Positions 51,681-58,159 are shown, counted from the stretch's first letter. The stretch: 64,000 nucleotides of DNA from a virus (IMGVR_UViG_3300013794_000014:77060-141059); one strand, 5' to 3'. The notes: generated from the letters alone by a model not told the origin. Made by a program: numbers and translations.

Positions 51681-51905
51681 GTGAAAACTATGGTAGATAA
51701 GAACGATCAGGAGCTTGTCCGTGCTATCCAACTCCTTAATAAGAGGCTCGAGCGCCTTGAACGTAAGCTCGAGTCTTATAGGAAGGAGGAGGATATGATG
51801 GAGCGGTTCCTGGAAAAGTACCTGGAGCGCCAGGAGCGCTACGAAAAGTGGACCTTCGTCCTCGAACTTGTTACGAGGATGTCAAGGCCTCCTCGCTTCA
51901 GGTAA
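51681..51905 (+). CDS. small coiled-coil pre-early protein (visibly higher GC)
   Basis: GGGGTGA SD, probable ATG 51690; charged heptads. Confidence 0.7.
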   Translation: MKTMVDKNDQELVRAIQLLNKRLERLERKLESYRKEEDMMERFLEKYLERQERYEKWTFVLELVTRMSRPPRFR

Positions 51906-51906
51906 A

Positions 51907-52008
51907 TTACCTTTATTTTTTGTTTTGTTTTAAGGTTCCGACATTTAGTCTTTTTGACCCATTTCTTTTTATTTCACTTAAATAGCCTGGCTGGCATCCG
52001 ACATGCCA
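51907..52008 (+). terminator. T-tracts followed by TGGCAT-CCGAC-ATGCCA hairpin
   Basis: Long T runs after the stop; perfect 6-bp stem at 51992-52008. Confidence 0.5.
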
Positions 52009-52074
52009 AATGACAAAAGAAAAAGAAAAAAGAAGAAAGAAAAAGCAAAAAGCAAAAGAAAAAATAGACAAATA

Positions 52075-52094
52075 CCGTGACATACCCTTCAGGC
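52075..52094 (+). promoter_or_regulatory. putative viral-RNAP pre-early promoter 2
   Basis: CCGT-GACATACCCTTCAGGC, followed by a GAGTAGTCC-TCATT-GGGCTACTC hairpin. Confidence 0.65.
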
Positions 52095-52184
52095 GAGAGT
52101 AGTCCTCATTGGGCTACTCGATGACAATTGTAAACTATAAACTATAAACTACCCAACATTAAAAACTAAACGGGGTGAAAACCT

Positions 52185-54608: not shown

Positions 54609-55956
54609 CAACACATACATAAAAGAAAAGATTCAACAGATAACCTCAGATAAAAGAGTCCAAAGAATAATAGAGGTTTGTAGACAACTTAATAGAGCCG
54701 ACACCGATAGACTCATAATGATGAACATATCATTATCTGATAAAGAATGGACAGAGATATTCAAAGATGCAGTAGACAAATTGACAAAAATACATGTACC
54801 AACAATATACGGTAAAGTTGTCCAAATAGACTATGAAAATCTTGTGATGCTTCCAATAGAAGACAAAAACCGTTACAAAGTACTTGTCCTAGAAGAAAAA
54901 GACAATATGCTCCAAGTAACCGACATAAAAGACGCCAATAACTTCGAAGAAAATGAACTATTAGCATTAGTTGGTAGACACCCCTTCGTAGATACTCTCG
55001 GATGGATAATGACAAAAGTAACATTCAGTAAGGAACTCAAAGAAGTCATAGGAATTGGACAAAAAACATGGAAACAAAGAGGTGGAGACTTCGACGGAGA
55101 TGCAGCAATGATCATATTGCTTAAGTTACCAAAGAAATACTATGACAAATATGTACCAGAAGTAACTAGAAGCACATATAGATCACATGAATACATTAAG
55201 TTACCGAAGAAATCCAGTAAAGCAGTAATCAGCATAGAGTTCAACGACTTAACAATACCGAAGGTTGAATTCCACTATGTAAAAGACAACAAATGTAGAA
55301 TCTTTCCAGAATCCATAAGTCATTTGCAAAACTTAGAGACGTTAACTGGTGCTATACTCATGGCAATCAATATAGCGACAAACTATCGTGTCAAATGGAC
55401 TAAACAACAATTGAAACGTAATACAGAAATGCTCATAACAGCAATAAAACAAGAACTACAAACATTGAAACAAAGAAATCCACAGTTATTTGCAAAATAC
55501 GCAATAATCTTCAGTAAAATACATCCAACATTTCTACAAATAGTGACACCATTACTGTTCATTGACAACATCGACCTAGAAATGTACCAAGCAATACTAA
55601 GAGTACACATAAAAGACAAAGGTCCAAGTCTATTCGGATACCTTGAGAAAGTCTTCTTGAGTGTTGCACAAACCAGAGAAGACATTGAACGCGTACTTAA
55701 GTACATATCGAAACATCAACAGAAAGTCATTGACATGAAGAAAGCAGAACATTCACTATTAGACTACAATGAAGCGTTGATAAGTAAGAATAAAGAACAA
55801 CTAAAAGAATCAGAATTAAAAGACTTGTATGAAAGGTGGAAAAATGTAGATGCAAACTGGAGTAAAAACAAATGGCAACTCCTAGTATACGGAAAAACAA
55901 ACGACATAATAGACTTACTTGCTGCTATAGTCCATAAAATCTGTTATGAGAGGTGA
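54586..55956 (+). CDS. minimal RNA polymerase beta'-like catalytic subunit (RNAP-2)
   Basis: LVGRHP (RxP) followed about 35 aa later by QRGGDFDGDAAM (codons 55087-55101). Confidence 0.8.
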   Translation: MQTLGGNNNTYIKEKIQQITSDKRVQRIIEVCRQLNRADTDRLIMMNISLSDKEWTEIFKDAVDKLTKIHVPTIYGKVVQIDYENLVMLPIEDKNRYKVLVLEEKDNMLQVTDIKDANNFEENELLALVGRHPFVDTLGWIMTKVTFSKELKEVIGIGQKTWKQRGGDFDGDAAMIILLKLPKKYYDKYVPEVTRSTYRSHEYIKLPKKSSKAVISIEFNDLTIPKVEFHYVKDNKCRIFPESISHLQNLETLTGAILMAINIATNYRVKWTKQQLKRNTEMLITAIKQELQTLKQRNPQLFAKYAIIFSKIHPTFLQIVTPLLFIDNIDLEMYQAILRVHIKDKGPSLFGYLEKVFLSVAQTREDIERVLKYISKHQQKVIDMKKAEHSLLDYNEALISKNKEQLKESELKDLYERWKNVDANWSKNKWQLLVYGKTNDIIDLLAAIVHKICYER

Positions 55957-55961
55957 TCCGA

Positions 55962-57083
55962 ATGAGTGTAAATGTAAATACCATTCCTGAAACACTTCTT
56001 ACATCATTTCTTAACGAAATAATAGAAACAATTGTCAAACTTAACGATGTGGACGTAGACTTAACAAATGCATATATTAGAAAAATTCTAGGGTTGAAAA
56101 GTGTCAGATCCTCAGTTCCACATGTAGAAGGTTCAAGAACAACCCTATTAATGAACGGACATAAGACATTTGGCATAACCGCACTGTACAGCTCAACCTC
56201 ATTGAACCTACTAACAGCATTAATAGCATCAGAAGAACTTGATGAAGACATCGCAATACTAAATAAACCACTAAAAGCATATTTAGATATCAAAATTGAA
56301 AAACCAATACCAGACAACTGGGCAATTACTAGAAAAGATGGGTTTATCAAGAAAGGTGAACTTATTGCAAAAGGACCAGAACCATTCGACGAAATTAGAG
56401 CAAACATAAGTGGACACTTGAAAATCGCATTTAGACAAATAATACTTGAAGCAAAACAACCAATTACAACAGGAAGTAAAATCCAAAACATATTTCTGCA
56501 AAAACACGTCTTGAAAGCAGAACACAATAGATTCAGATTCGTAAACATGAAAGAAGAGAAAGTAAAAGTTACAAAGATCACTAGAAAGAACCTTAAACGT
56601 ATTGGACTTAGACCAAAAATCGTCAATATTGCAGAACATGTAGACAAACCAACCCTAGTAGCAGGTTCAACTTCAGTACTCAAAAGACGTTCATCAGGAA
56701 CATTGGCACAACTATGGTTAGGATACCAATTAGCGTTTACGAACAACAAAAATAAAAATAAACCGTCAAACGAAATGGATTGGAATAAACATAAGACAGT
56801 ATACGTGACAAAAGTCTATGATACAAAACATCAGACATATCATGACGCCATAATCGGAATTGGATGTTGGCTTGTAGCAATCAATTCAAACGGCTATGAG
56901 TACAAAATAGCAAACAAACATACAGATATATTCGGTAGGCATATTAATAGCGTGTCAATAGATCCATTTGCCTTCAAAGTCCTTCAATATAAATATCCTG
57001 AGTTATCTTACGCATTTATCGAATATCAACTTAGAATGCGTGAATTAAACTTACGTAACTACTTTAAAGGAGGTGATCTGTAA
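55962..57083 (+). CDS. minimal RNA polymerase beta-like subunit (RNAP-2)
   Basis: NLLTALIASEELDEDIAIL (ED motif), GSKIQNIFLQKHV (K-x7-K), TSVLKRRSSG; C-terminal SIDPF matches SIDYF of the 1..708 protein. Confidence 0.7.
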   Translation: MSVNVNTIPETLLTSFLNEIIETIVKLNDVDVDLTNAYIRKILGLKSVRSSVPHVEGSRTTLLMNGHKTFGITALYSSTSLNLLTALIASEELDEDIAILNKPLKAYLDIKIEKPIPDNWAITRKDGFIKKGELIAKGPEPFDEIRANISGHLKIAFRQIILEAKQPITTGSKIQNIFLQKHVLKAEHNRFRFVNMKEEKVKVTKITRKNLKRIGLRPKIVNIAEHVDKPTLVAGSTSVLKRRSSGTLAQLWLGYQLAFTNNKNKNKPSNEMDWNKHKTVYVTKVYDTKHQTYHDAIIGIGCWLVAINSNGYEYKIANKHTDIFGRHINSVSIDPFAFKVLQYKYPELSYAFIEYQLRMRELNLRNYFKGGDL

Positions 57084-57517
57084 TGCAAATTAAAATAACA
57101 GAATTAAACGAACAGAAAACCACTTGTAAAAGAACTTCCAAAATCAGAAGATTCTTCGATAACTTACTTGACAAATTCTTAAAGCAATTAAAAGAAGACT
57201 TAAAAGATCACGTCAAAGACGACCAACAACTAATAGACACACTAAATGAATTCTTACAACACAAACAGATAATAATCACACTCGATGAAGAAGAAACTAT
57301 GGAGTTCAGAAAGTACTCAAGGCGTGATTACAGTGATGGTGACACATGTACATTGTTGGAAAACGGAGTGTTCCTATCGTCATTTAATGGACCAAAACAG
57401 TTCATAAAGGCGTTACTTGACATAGGCATTAAACCACCAATCAAAGTAAGAATCAAGTATGACAGACAAGGTAAAATCAATATAAAGTTCACAAGAAAAA
57501 TCGACTTACCGCTATAA
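57083..57517 (+). CDS. hypothetical protein coupled to the RNAP-2 genes
   Basis: TAATG stop/start overlap; GGAGGTGA SD. Confidence 0.7.
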   Translation: MQIKITELNEQKTTCKRTSKIRRFFDNLLDKFLKQLKEDLKDHVKDDQQLIDTLNEFLQHKQIIITLDEEETMEFRKYSRRDYSDGDTCTLLENGVFLSSFNGPKQFIKALLDIGIKPPIKVRIKYDRQGKINIKFTRKIDLPL

Positions 57518-57565
57518 ATAAAACTTCCTTTTCTTTTTCCTAAAGGTCTTTTTAGAGGTGATAAC

Positions 57566-58159
57566 ATAATAAGACAAATAGATTACAACGACACGAAACT
57601 CATAATAGTCGGTATTGTACATAATTCGAAAATATCGTTGGAAAGAGTTAAAAACATATTGTCACACACTGATAACAACACACCAATACTACTCGAATAT
57701 TGCCAAAGACGCTATGAGACAAACCAACAAAAGAAATGGTACAAATCAATATGGCATCTTCTAGCAAAAACGCATTTGACAATAGAATCGTTTGTAATTG
57801 ATTACTGTAGACAAAACAATAGACCGTTAAAGTTCATTGACATAGACATTAGAGAACCGTTGAAAAGATACTATAAAAGATACCCTGTACATTTCCTAAT
57901 TGACATATGTAAAAAGTTATTGGGATACACTTACGTCGATACAACTCAACTTGAAATTACACTTAATTCTACCAACTATATTGATCCGATAACAGCAAAA
58001 TGGACAATGTTAGAACAAAGAGACACATATATGGCCAAACAGATTAAACAGTATATTGATGAGTATAAGACACATGAAACGCGTGAGACACATAAATTAC
58101 GCAACATAATTGTAATCGTTGGAAAAGCACATGTACCTGGAATCCTTGAAAAATTGTAA
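57566..58159 (+). CDS. TraB/GumN (Tiki-like) family protein; apparent ATA start
   Basis: IIVGIVHNS, LLEYC..R, QRDTYMA, IVGKAHVPGI; GAGGTGATAAC is followed by ATA in frame. Confidence 0.7.
   Translation: MIRQIDYNDTKLIIVGIVHNSKISLERVKNILSHTDNNTPILLEYCQRRYETNQQKKWYKSIWHLLAKTHLTIESFVIDYCRQNNRPLKFIDIDIREPLKRYYKRYPVHFLIDICKKLLGYTYVDTTQLEITLNSTNYIDPITAKWTMLEQRDTYMAKQIKQYIDEYKTHETRETHKLRNIIVIVGKAHVPGILEKL

What the first reader, a model, noticed from the sequence alone, without database searches (positions are those of the whole stretch)
51681..58159. No TTTT on the coding strand of the pre-early genes
Seen (by eye): about 5.5 kb of coding sequence in ten ORFs has no run of four T, with frequent C/A-ending codons, while several spacers between them are long T tracts. 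TTTT is common in nrdD and polB, and reappears in the next gene (58549). Inference: the polymerase that reads this region terminates at very short U runs, which marks out its regulon and differs from the enzyme(s) reading other genes.
Basis: partly seen in the sequence, partly recalled or inferred. Interest (0 to 1): 0.72.

Follow-up and report, generated by a model that had tools for sequence, protein, structure and literature searches.

The report
T-run-free early gene block in virus
A 6.5-kb block of early genes in a 141-kb tailed virus has no run of four T in any coding sequence, yet T runs fill every gap between its genes; this most likely shows avoidance of a very short stop signal for transcription, which no experiment has yet tested.

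Summary
Ten same-strand ORFs (1,849 codons, window 51690-58159) contain no T4+ run. Synonymous-codon shuffles expect 12.35, and the lowest value in 20,000 shuffles was 3. The cut-off is sharp: runs of exactly three T are at expectation (34 vs 37.8). The 1,032 nt of spacers hold 27 T4+ runs. Other genes of this virus have T4-T6 at about 0.85 of expectation and avoid only T7+. Two methanogen genomes have T4-T6 at about 1.0.

The block is a distinct module. It has three copies of a promoter-like motif found nowhere else in the genome and conserved in relatives. It also encodes a small split RNA polymerase; the fold of ORF7 matches only largest subunits of multisubunit RNAPs. The virus carries a tape-measure-fused RNA polymerase, as Thermus phage P23-45 does, whose virion enzyme reads 'pre-early' genes.

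Hairpin-less T tracts end genes across the whole genome. The purge is strict only in this virus and its closest kin: partial at 55-80% identity and absent at 44%. Phage N4 lacks T4+ in both early and middle genes. Which enzyme or host factor senses U4 is unknown. Earlier notes of this scan on this genome supplied the polymerase leads.

The parts
51643..51665 (+). Promoter-like motif copy 1 (CCGTCGACACACCATTCAGGCAG), 28 nt before ORF1
   Evidence: GACAYACCNTTNAGGC occurs 3 times in the window (0.24 expected) and nowhere else in the 141-kb genome; it aligns with 5 copies in relatives L001 and L002.
51690..51905 (+). ORF1 (71 aa, coiled-coil-like, no family)
   Evidence: No T4+.
51916..51970 (+). 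T-tract cluster 1 (T6, T4, T4, T5, T5), starting 11 nt after the ORF1 stop
   Evidence: A hairpin ends 13 nt upstream (z -2.9).
51992..52008 (+). Small hairpin TGGCAT-CCGAC-ATGCCA carrying a TCCGACAT element. The other three copies are at 51937, 53315 and 58241.
   Evidence: 4 copies against 1.1 expected, all within this block; comparable small hairpins lie between the T cluster and the motif in L001 and L002. Function unknown.
52075..52097 (+). Promoter-like motif copy 2
52185..52475 (+). ORF2 (96 aa, acidic C-terminus)
   Evidence: No T4+.
52502..52505 (+). Single T4, 20 nt after a GAGGAGG/CCTCCTC hairpin
52528..52671 (+). ORF3 (47 aa)
52657..52695 (+). The only canonical hairpin-plus-T8 terminator-like site in the block
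52718..53080 (+). ORF4 (120 aa; weak winged-helix hint)
53205..53263 (+). T-tract cluster (T6, T9, T5, T6), hairpin-less and pyrimidine-rich (CCTTTACCTTTACCTTTATTTTTT)
   Evidence: free energy 0, z +0.5.
53343..53365 (+). Promoter-like motif copy 3
53420..54022 (+). ORF5 (200 aa, no family)
54090..54116 (+). T-tract cluster (T4, T5, T4), hairpin-less. Probable leaky attenuator ahead of the polymerase genes.
   Evidence: 'Leaky' is an inference: no promoter motif follows.
54150..54608 (+). ORF6 (152 aa)
54586..55956 (+). ORF7, the beta'-like RNA polymerase subunit, with invariant RGGDFDGD
   Evidence: invariant R165 G166 G167 D168 D170 G171 D172; all 50 listed Foldseek matches are largest subunits (chain A) of multisubunit RNAPs, all but three at probability 1.00 (model pLDDT 68).
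55953..57083 (+). ORF8, candidate beta-like partner (GSKIQNIFLQK)
   Evidence: motif. (K176, Q183, K184 invariant). It overlaps ORF7 in all relatives. The fold test was inconclusive.
57083..57517 (+). ORF9 (144 aa)
57529..57553 (+). T-tract cluster (T4, T5, T5), hairpin-less
57566..58159 (+). ORF10 (197 aa; weak TraB/PrgY-like hint), probably starting at ATA behind the RBS GAGGTGATAAC
   Evidence: The same RBS-ATA arrangement occurs in L141. Pfam hint.
58185..58297 (+). Terminal T-tract cluster of ten runs (T4 to T9) that ends the block
   Evidence: fT 0.60. Hairpin-less.
11800..32670 (-). 6,956-aa tape-measure-like protein with an N-terminal two-barrel RNA polymerase domain. Candidate reader of the block.
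   Evidence: Pfam RNA_pol_Rpb1_2 (E 2.5e-7, above the cut-off) and Metallophos; peptidase and tape-measure PHROGs. That it reads the block is an inference, by analogy with P23-45 gp96 (PMC10770324).

Best explanation
The stretch 51.64-58.30 kb is a self-contained early ('pre-early') transcription module. Three promoter-like elements (consensus CCGYGACAYACCNTTNAGGCR) drive three same-strand units:
- P1: ORF1.
- P2: ORF2-4.
- P3: ORF5, then ORF6-9 with the split mini RNA polymerase ORF7/ORF8, then ORF10.

Oligo-U made from sense-strand T runs is the 3'-end or termination signal. It is used as clusters of T4-T9 in every spacer, mostly without a hairpin.

Inside the leaders and ORFs of this module, selection has removed every T run of four or more in two ways. 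One is a T-poor, C/A-ending codon usage. The other is a context-specific choice: Phe is always TTC next to a T.

The most likely reason is that the machinery making these first transcripts stops or is cut at runs as short as U4. That machinery is probably the injected tape-measure-fused RNA polymerase, working from one template with very few enzyme molecules. The 3.4-kb unit that delivers the next polymerase cannot afford the loss. Later genes are read by other enzymes or in other conditions that tolerate T4-T6.

Shown: the purge, its threshold, its confinement to the block, the motif, the T clusters and the beta'-like fold.
Inferred: that T runs terminate here, which polymerase reads the block, and that sensitivity rather than cost sets the threshold.
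For: - Purge: T4+ 0 vs 12.35 (minimum 3 in 20,000 shuffles), with T3 at 0.90 of expectation.
- Run-length specificity and Phe context.
- 27 T4+ runs in 1,032 nt of spacers, none in the 5' leaders.
- Four of the seven clusters are unstructured, and only one canonical hairpin terminator is present.
- Rest of this genome: T4-T6 at 0.85-0.88, T7+ 1 vs 5.2. Methanogen genes: T4-T6 at about 1.0, T7+ at 0.4-0.5. Being read by an archaeal cellular RNAP therefore does not by itself purge T4.
- The motif is unique to the block. It is conserved behind T clusters in relatives at 48-55% protein identity.
- ORF7 is a beta'-like RNAP subunit, and the giant ORF carries an RNAP domain.
- Precedent: the tape-measure-fused virion RNAP of P23-45 reads pre-early genes that encode the next RNAP, and it has its own terminator motif (PMC10770324).
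- The closest clade is depleted overall: this virus, L001, L003, L005 and L006 give 12 observed vs about 42 expected.
- At two sites where the 80%-identical L003 has TTTTT, this virus has TTTCT.
Against: - There are no transcript ends and no biochemistry.
- T-tract gene ends occur genome-wide.
- The T4/T5 clusters at 54090 and 57529 must be read through for ORF6-10 to be expressed, unless unseen promoters exist.
- The purge is not conserved. L002 has 12/15 although it has the motif. L141/L142 have 16/17.4, with T5 and T6 runs in the homologous polymerase genes. L003 has T5 in both polymerase genes.
- polB and the giant gene are also partly depleted. That pattern fits graded selection by transcript length or value as well as it fits an enzyme-specific threshold.
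- N4 shows strong T4+ depletion in genes read by two different polymerases.
- The block lies 5.8-12.3 kb from the nearest genome end, not at the end.
Confidence: 0.5

Rival explanations
1. A host factor, not the viral polymerase, senses U4. If the host is a methanogen, the general termination factor aCPSF1 binds nascent RNA with paired U4 tracts and cleaves it. The very first viral transcripts, whoever makes them (host RNAP or injected RNAP), are purged of U4 to escape this. Later transcripts are protected, or are made after the factor has been neutralised.
For: - In Methanococcus maripaludis the terminator unit is the U4 tract. aCPSF1 binds RNAs with two U5 or two U4 tracts but not two U3 tracts, and termination efficiency rises with the number of U4 tracts (PMC8716108). 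This is the same T3/T4 threshold as.
- Five of the seven spacers carry two or more T4+ runs close together.
- Gene ends are hairpin-less genome-wide.
- GGTGAT ribosome-binding sites are used throughout.
- Earlier notes of this scan assign a vent methanogen host (not checked here).
Against: - Genes of two methanogens, one of them a vent Methanothermococcus, carry T4-T6 at chance level. Exposure to this system does not normally purge T4.
- The other 135 kb of the virus are not purged.
- The promoter-like motif does not look like a TATA/BRE promoter.
- The host is not established here. A DNA search of one Methanothermococcus genome gave only low-complexity matches.
Confidence: 0.2
2. The purge is a by-product of translational or mRNA-level optimisation. 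Early genes carry a high-expression codon usage (C-ending two-fold codons, A-rich unstructured mRNA) with codon-pair preferences. The loss of T4 follows from that, not from transcription.
For: - Third-position C is 20% vs 13%, and TTC is 74% of Phe codons vs 33% elsewhere.
- The T-poor, A-rich composition is conserved in all relatives, even where T4 is not purged.
- A5+ runs are also depleted (23 vs 35.4).
- Single methanogen genes can be strongly depleted (1 vs 9.0 and 2 vs 8.1).
- N4 is depleted genome-wide.
Against: - The shuffles keep each gene's codon usage and still expect 12.35.
- T3 runs and short T|T junctions are at expectation, which points to a run-length threshold rather than a codon-pair effect.
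- The same T runs are concentrated 5- to 10-fold in the spacers of the same block.
Confidence: 0.15
3. There is no special sensitivity, only a higher cost. All polymerases in this system terminate weakly at any oligo-T, with a probability that rises with run length. The purge is complete here only because termination in this block is uniquely costly: a single template, few enzyme molecules, and possibly coupling to DNA entry.
For: - Depletion is graded elsewhere and tracks transcript length or value. The giant 20.9-kb gene has T4 0.72, T5 0.55, T6 0.28 and T7+ 0. polB has 5 vs 13.4.
- T-tract terminators of the same style occur genome-wide.
- Conservation in relatives is patchy and correlates with GC content, as expected for weak selection working against AT mutation pressure.
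Against: The step from 0.85 elsewhere to 0 here, with T3 untouched, is abrupt. Most other long or essential genes, such as nrdD at 10 vs 12.7, are not purged. This rival overlaps the best explanation. It differs only on whether the enzyme's threshold is different.
Confidence: 0.12
4. Chance or composition alone: the block is simply T-poor.
For: fT is 0.234, against about 0.30 elsewhere.
Against: Poisson P(0 | 12.35) is 4e-6. None of 20,000 shuffles came below 3. Order-0 and order-1 expectations are 17 and 20.
Confidence: 0.03

Closest known systems
Poxvirus early genes and the early termination signal TTTTTNT (U5NU)
   Same: A virion-delivered multisubunit-type RNA polymerase reads a first gene class. 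That class ends at a short T-rich signal which the later transcription apparatus ignores (PMC2440811). It is established knowledge, not tested here, that early ORFs largely lack the signal.
   Different: The poxvirus signal is a defined heptamer read in the RNA by a capping-enzyme/NPH-I termination factor in a eukaryotic virus. Here the signal would be any run of four or more T. The same kind of tract also ends later genes. The host is prokaryotic, and nothing has been shown biochemically.
Thermus phage P23-45: tape-measure-fused virion RNAP gp96 and its pre-early regulon (PMC10770324)
   Same: A giant tape-measure protein with an N-terminal two-barrel RNAP. A small first gene block has its own promoter motif and encodes the next (non-virion) RNAP. 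A terminator type is specific to that block.
   Different: There is no detectable sequence similarity. The P23-45 terminator is a 26-nt conserved motif, not oligo-T. The P23-45 block abuts the genome end. The nvRNAP here is split into two small genes. Transcription has been mapped in P23-45 but not here.
Archaeal oligo-U termination with aCPSF1 (Methanococcus maripaludis; PMC8716108) and RNA polymerase III T-run termination
   Same: Hairpin-independent termination at runs of four or more U. There is a U3/U4 threshold for aCPSF1 binding. Efficiency rises with the number of tracts, matching the multi-tract clusters in the spacers.
   Different: Cellular methanogen genes are not purged of T4-T6. 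The strict purge is confined to one viral block. The host identity and any role of aCPSF1 are untested.
Bacterial intrinsic (hairpin plus U tract) terminators
   Same: A U tract lies at the 3' end. One site (52657-52695) fits the pattern.
   Different: Four of the seven clusters have no foldable stem at all (free energy about 0). Two more have the hairpin 13-20 nt away from the T run.

Membership tests
Regulon-specific terminator-signal avoidance (poxvirus early-gene type) | The signal is absent from ORFs of the class beyond what composition explains | tested here: met
   0 vs 12.35 T4+ runs under synonymous shuffles, with T3 unaffected.
Regulon-specific terminator-signal avoidance (poxvirus early-gene type) | The signal is present downstream of the genes of the class | tested here: met
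   27 T4+ runs in 1,032 nt of spacers. Every spacer longer than 20 nt has at least one.
Regulon-specific terminator-signal avoidance (poxvirus early-gene type) | The signal is tolerated inside genes of the other classes | tested here: met
   T4-T6 are at 0.85-0.88 of expectation in 91 other plus-strand genes. Only T7+ is avoided.
Regulon-specific terminator-signal avoidance (poxvirus early-gene type) | Transcripts of the class actually end at the signal, by a class-specific enzyme or factor | not testable with these tools
   Needs 3'-end mapping or in vitro transcription.
Pre-early regulon of a tape-measure-fused virion RNAP (P23-45 type) | The genome encodes a tape-measure-like giant protein with a two-barrel RNAP domain | tested here: met
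   The 6,956-aa ORF has Pfam RNA_pol_Rpb1_2 at E 2.5e-7, above the cut-off. Its C-terminal half hits tape-measure and peptidase PHROGs.
Pre-early regulon of a tape-measure-fused virion RNAP (P23-45 type) | The block encodes the next (non-virion) RNAP | tested here: met
   ORF7 has invariant DFDGD, and its model matches only RNAP largest subunits. The beta-like identity of ORF8 rests on a motif and on synteny only.
Pre-early regulon of a tape-measure-fused virion RNAP (P23-45 type) | A promoter motif restricted to the block and conserved in relatives | tested here: met
   Three copies, unique in the 141 kb. Five further copies occur in L001 and L002. The motif is absent from the distant L141.
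Pre-early regulon of a tape-measure-fused virion RNAP (P23-45 type) | The block lies at the genome end that enters first | tested here: inconclusive
   The block spans 128.7-135.3 kb of a 141,059-bp record with direct terminal repeats. That puts it 5.8 kb from the right end, with genes of both strands in between.
Pre-early regulon of a tape-measure-fused virion RNAP (P23-45 type) | The polymerase is packaged in virions and transcribes the block | not testable with these tools
   Needs virion proteomics, and ChIP-seq or in vitro transcription.
Archaeal U4-tract / aCPSF1 terminators | Hairpin-less tracts of four or more U, usually two or more within about 30 nt | tested here: met
   Five of the seven spacers have two or more T4+ runs. 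Four clusters have no structure at all.
Archaeal U4-tract / aCPSF1 terminators | The host is an archaeon that uses this system | not tested
   This is a lead from earlier notes only. GGTGAT ribosome-binding sites and genome-wide oligo-T gene ends are compatible with it. The single-genome DNA search was uninformative.
Bacterial intrinsic terminators | A GC-rich hairpin immediately followed by a U tract | tested here: not met
   Only one site of seven fits (52657). Four clusters do not fold.

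The most novel reading that the evidence does not exclude
The injected tape-measure-fused two-barrel RNA polymerase of this virus, probably an archaeal one, terminates without a hairpin at oligo-U with a threshold of only four U, as Pol III does. On this reading, its regulon can be read from sequence alone: a 23-nt promoter motif plus a strictly T4-free sense strand ending in T clusters. This would be the first transcription-unit grammar for a virion RNA polymerase of this class. It would also offer a simple computational mark for finding such regulons in uncultured viruses.
Probability: 0.3. Interest if true: 0.75.

Novelty: new variant of a known kind. Interest (0 to 1): 0.55.

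Why it matters
Very little is known about how the minimal, clamp-less two-barrel RNA polymerases carried in virions stop transcribing. No termination signal came up in the phi14:2 preprint I read. P23-45 has only an unexplained 26-nt motif.

This block gives a clean hypothesis that can be tested at the bench. It specifies a candidate promoter, a candidate terminator with a defined length threshold, and a natural negative control in the T4-rich genes of the same genome.

If the threshold belongs to the enzyme, it links a viral polymerase to Pol III/archaeal-type oligo-U termination, and it gives a sequence-only way to delimit virion-polymerase regulons in metagenomic viruses. If it belongs to the host factor, it would be a case of a virus shaping its first mRNAs to evade the host's general terminator.

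Tried and rejected
- Megablast of the block and tblastn of the polymerase part of the giant protein against 50,697 phage records found no match.
- The search for related loci in IMG/VR with ORF7 and with the giant N-terminus found nothing.
- PHROGs and Pfam on the ten ORFs gave no family above threshold.
- A profile of ORF7 against PDB sequences gave only noise.
- BLASTP of ORF7 and ORF8 against the first 2,000 residues of the giant protein showed no similarity.
- The ORF8 model was too poor (pLDDT 52) and its fold search was inconclusive.
- A literature search for polypurine/triplex tracts in P23-45 was not useful.
- Earlier-findings look-ups for relatives, and by words, gave nothing directly on T-run avoidance.
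- A DNA search of 20 kb of the window against a Methanothermococcus genome, meant to pick up CRISPR-type matches, gave only low-complexity hits. The host is therefore not confirmed here.
- Taxon labels were not available for the 151 methanogen genomes reached through a locus handle. I used one unnamed 1.24-Mb genome and the named Methanothermococcus sp. Ax23 as controls.
- I rejected the idea that TCCGACAT or the AATGACATTT repeats at 54100-54130 are extra promoters of the same class. They do not fit the GACA-N9-GRCG spacing.
- I rejected horizontal acquisition as the cause. GC content equals that of the rest of the genome, and relatives share the A-rich, T-poor skew.

Full report
**Setting**

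The window is the last 64 kb of a single-contig, 141,059-bp virus record with direct terminal repeats, rated 100% complete. GC is about 34%. The window holds:
- nrdD, a clamp loader and a family-B DNA polymerase;
- a large terminase subunit and a ligase-like gene;
- a 6,956-aa ORF (11800-32670, minus strand).

The N-terminal part of the giant ORF matches Pfam RNA_pol_Rpb1_2 above the curated cut-off. Its C-terminal half matches peptidase and tape-measure PHROGs. The closest described arrangement is Thermus phage P23-45. There, a tape-measure-fused virion RNA polymerase transcribes 'pre-early' genes that include the gene of a second, non-virion polymerase, and its terminators carry a special 26-nt motif (PMC10770324). 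Nothing similar in sequence is present among 50,697 phage records or in IMG/VR.

**The observation**

Between 51.6 and 58.3 kb, every run of four or more T on the + strand lies in a spacer (read directly). I curated ten ORFs on that strand, totalling 5,607 nt and 1,849 internal codons. I then shuffled synonymous codons within each gene, which keeps the proteins and each gene's own codon usage.

| Measure | Observed | Expected | Source |
|---|---|---|---|
| T4+ runs (all) | 0 | 12.35 (sd 2.9; minimum 3 in 20,000) | |
| Runs of exactly T3 | 34 | 37.8 | |
| Runs of exactly T4 | 0 | 9.8 | |
| Runs of exactly T5 | 0 | 1.8 | |
| T\|T codon junctions in runs of 2-3 | 44 | 51 (p = 0.10) | |

The threshold is therefore sharp, and the deficit is confined to junctions that would make T4+.

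Two devices achieve the purge.
- A general shift away from third-position T: 21% against 35% elsewhere, with C at 20% against 13%, and TTC at 74% of Phe codons against 33%.
- A context rule: all 13 Phe codons with a T neighbour are TTC, while all 18 TTT codons have non-T neighbours (hypergeometric p = 0.011).

The 5' leaders behind the promoter-like motifs are also free of T4. By contrast, the 1,032 nt of spacers hold 27 T4+ runs. The stretch 54117-57528 is the longest T4-free stretch of the whole genome.

**Contrast within and outside the genome**

| Gene set | T4 | T5 | T6 | T7+ | Source |
|---|---|---|---|---|---|
| 91 other plus-strand genes of this virus | 0.88 | 0.85 | 0.86 | 1 vs 5.2 | |
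| Giant gene | 0.72 | 0.55 | 0.28 | 0 | |
| Unnamed 1.24-Mb methanogen genome, GC 31% | 1.01 | 1.22 | 0.88 | 0.50 | |
| Methanothermococcus sp. Ax23, vent isolate, GC 32% | 0.99 | 0.89 | 1.01 | 0.41 | |

Values are observed/expected ratios. polB has 5 T4+ runs against 13.4 expected, with none in its last 1.9 kb.

Genes read by a cellular archaeal RNA polymerase are thus not purged of T4-T6. The block stands out against its own genome and against plausible host-type genomes.

One caution comes from coliphage N4. It is depleted in T4+ both in its early genes, which its virion RNA polymerase reads (8 vs 26), and in its middle genes (43 vs 102). Depletion against synonymous shuffles is therefore not a specific mark of a virion-polymerase regulon. 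The internal contrast is what counts here.

**What the block is**

None of the ten proteins matches a family. The block nevertheless has a clear architecture.

A motif with consensus CCGYGACAYACCNTTNAGGCR occurs at 51643, 52075 and 53343. The chance expectation is 0.24 copies, and there is no other copy in the 141 kb. Each copy lies 28-91 nt upstream of an ORF with a GGTGA-type ribosome-binding site.

ORF7 (54586-55956) carries an invariant RGGDFDGD. A model built on eight homologues (pLDDT 68) matches only largest subunits of multisubunit RNA polymerases: Pol IV/V, Pol II, Pol III, ASFV, vaccinia and archaeal, almost all at probability 1.00.

ORF8 overlaps ORF7, keeps an invariant K-x6-QK segment (GSKIQNIFLQK), and is its neighbour in every relative. 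Its fold could not be tested because the model is poor.

The block therefore encodes a small split polymerase, as the P23-45 pre-early region encodes gp64.

**The T clusters**

Of the seven clusters:
- one is a canonical hairpin-plus-T8 site (52657);
- two have a hairpin 13-20 nt upstream;
- four (53205, 54090, 57529, 58185) lie in pyrimidine-rich sequence with no foldable structure at all.

Hairpin-less T tracts also follow genes elsewhere in the genome. Oligo-T is thus the general style of gene end in this virus.

The clusters at 54090 and 57529 are followed by genes without a recognisable promoter. They are most simply read as leaky attenuators that grade expression along the P3 unit. This is an inference.

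**Relatives**

ORF8 has eight homologues at 48-99% identity on short metagenomic contigs. ORF7 has six, one of them inside a 2,872-aa protein.

| Contig | Protein identity | T4+ observed / expected | Source |
|---|---|---|---|
| L005 | 66% | 0 / 4.0 | |
| L006 | 53% | 0 / 3.9 | |
| L003 | 80% | 5 / 10.4 | |
| L001 | 55% | 7 / 11.7 | |
| L004 | 58% | 9 / 14.4 | |
| L002 | 48% | 12 / 15 | |
| L141 and L142 | 44%, GC 26% | 16 / 17.4 and 15 / 15.9 | |

All relatives keep the A-rich, T-poor sense strand. The strict purge is not conserved. In L001 the flanking non-block genes are at 0.88.

At two sites where L003 has TTTTT inside the polymerase genes, this virus has TTTCT.

L001 and L002 keep the same order of elements: gene, large T cluster, small hairpin, motif, leader, gene. 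The invariant core of the motif is GACA-N9-GRCG. L141 has a different upstream sequence.

The module and its punctuation are therefore conserved in the nearer relatives. The strictness of T4 exclusion is a property of this lineage and its closest kin, and it weakens with falling GC.

**Interpretation**

The within-genome statistics and the threshold point to a sequence signal under selection, not to composition.

The best reading is that oligo-U ends transcripts in this virus, and that the first transcripts are unusually sensitive to short runs, or unusually costly to lose. The natural candidate reader is the injected tape-measure-fused polymerase. The virus has one. It must read something first. 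This block has a private promoter-like motif and encodes the next polymerase.

The patchy conservation, the necessary leakiness of the internal T4/T5 clusters and the graded depletion in polB and the giant gene argue against T4 being an efficient terminator for this polymerase family in general. They leave room for a cost-based version of the same idea.

A host-factor version is also live. In Methanococcus maripaludis the general terminator aCPSF1 binds paired U4 or U5 tracts but not U3, and efficiency rises with the number of U4 tracts (PMC8716108). This is the same threshold and the same multi-tract design seen here.

A purely translational explanation fits the codon shift but not the run-length threshold.

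**Comparison with what is known**

The logic is that of poxvirus early genes. Their termination signal is ignored by the late apparatus (PMC2440811). It also resembles Pol III and archaeal oligo-U termination. The genomic set-up is that of P23-45.

What is new is the combination in a prokaryotic virus: a strict T4 threshold confined to one promoter-defined block that encodes a polymerase. I file it as a new variant of a known kind, with moderate interest.

Noticed in passing
window 9891-12012 (polB 3' part) and 11800-32670 (giant gene): polB has 5 T4+ runs against 13.4 expected, all in its first ~855 nt. Its last 1.9 kb forms the second-longest T4-free stretch of the genome, although T content there is ordinary. 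The giant gene shows graded depletion: T4 0.72, T5 0.55, T6 0.28, T7+ 0.
   Followed up: partly
window 62617-62680 (both strands); also genome positions 549, 2101, 3280, 7679: A second promoter-like class, TTGCATTGRTACATTT(C)AATATTTAA, lies upstream of several genes near both genome ends. The genes behind it are not T4-depleted.
   Followed up: partly
window 57558-57571; L141 4625-4645: ORF10 has no ATG, GTG or TTG behind its strong ribosome-binding site GAGGTGATAAC. An in-frame ATA follows it directly. A 44%-identity relative has the same arrangement, GGTGATAACC-ATA, which suggests a conserved ATA start codon.
   Followed up: partly
window 51937, 51997, 53315, 58241: TCCGACAT occurs four times in the block (1.1 expected), always next to T clusters. 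Two copies form small hairpins with a CCGAC loop. Relatives have comparable hairpins (GGCATT-CCATCA-AATGCC) between the T cluster and the promoter-like motif. Function unknown.
   Followed up: partly
window 53081-53204: After ORF4 comes a strong ribosome-binding site with a 9-codon GTG mini-ORF. It is followed by CAGTAA/CAATAA-type repeats that put stops in several frames, before the T cluster.
   Followed up: no
window 59080-59687: A 608-nt non-coding stretch between convergent/divergent genes contains four copies of TTGGRRACATYK and CCAGTAAGT repeats. It may be an origin or a packaging-related region.
   Followed up: no
window 63900-64000 and genome 1-115: Both ends of the record consist of tandem copies of a 24-nt unit (CGCTTGGTCCATCATAGTGTCCAA). 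These copies make up the direct terminal repeat.
   Followed up: no
L139 (Escherichia phage N4, 154-34485): N4 genes are strongly depleted in sense-strand T4+ runs against synonymous shuffles. This holds both for early genes (8 vs 26) and for middle genes (43 vs 102), although different polymerases read the two classes.
   Followed up: partly
genome 76131-76858 (just before the window) and window 1-708: A stretch that my ORF caller left as 'intergenic' encodes ...LDADIDGD..., a second beta'-like catalytic motif, next to the beta-like ORF at window 1-708.
   Followed up: no
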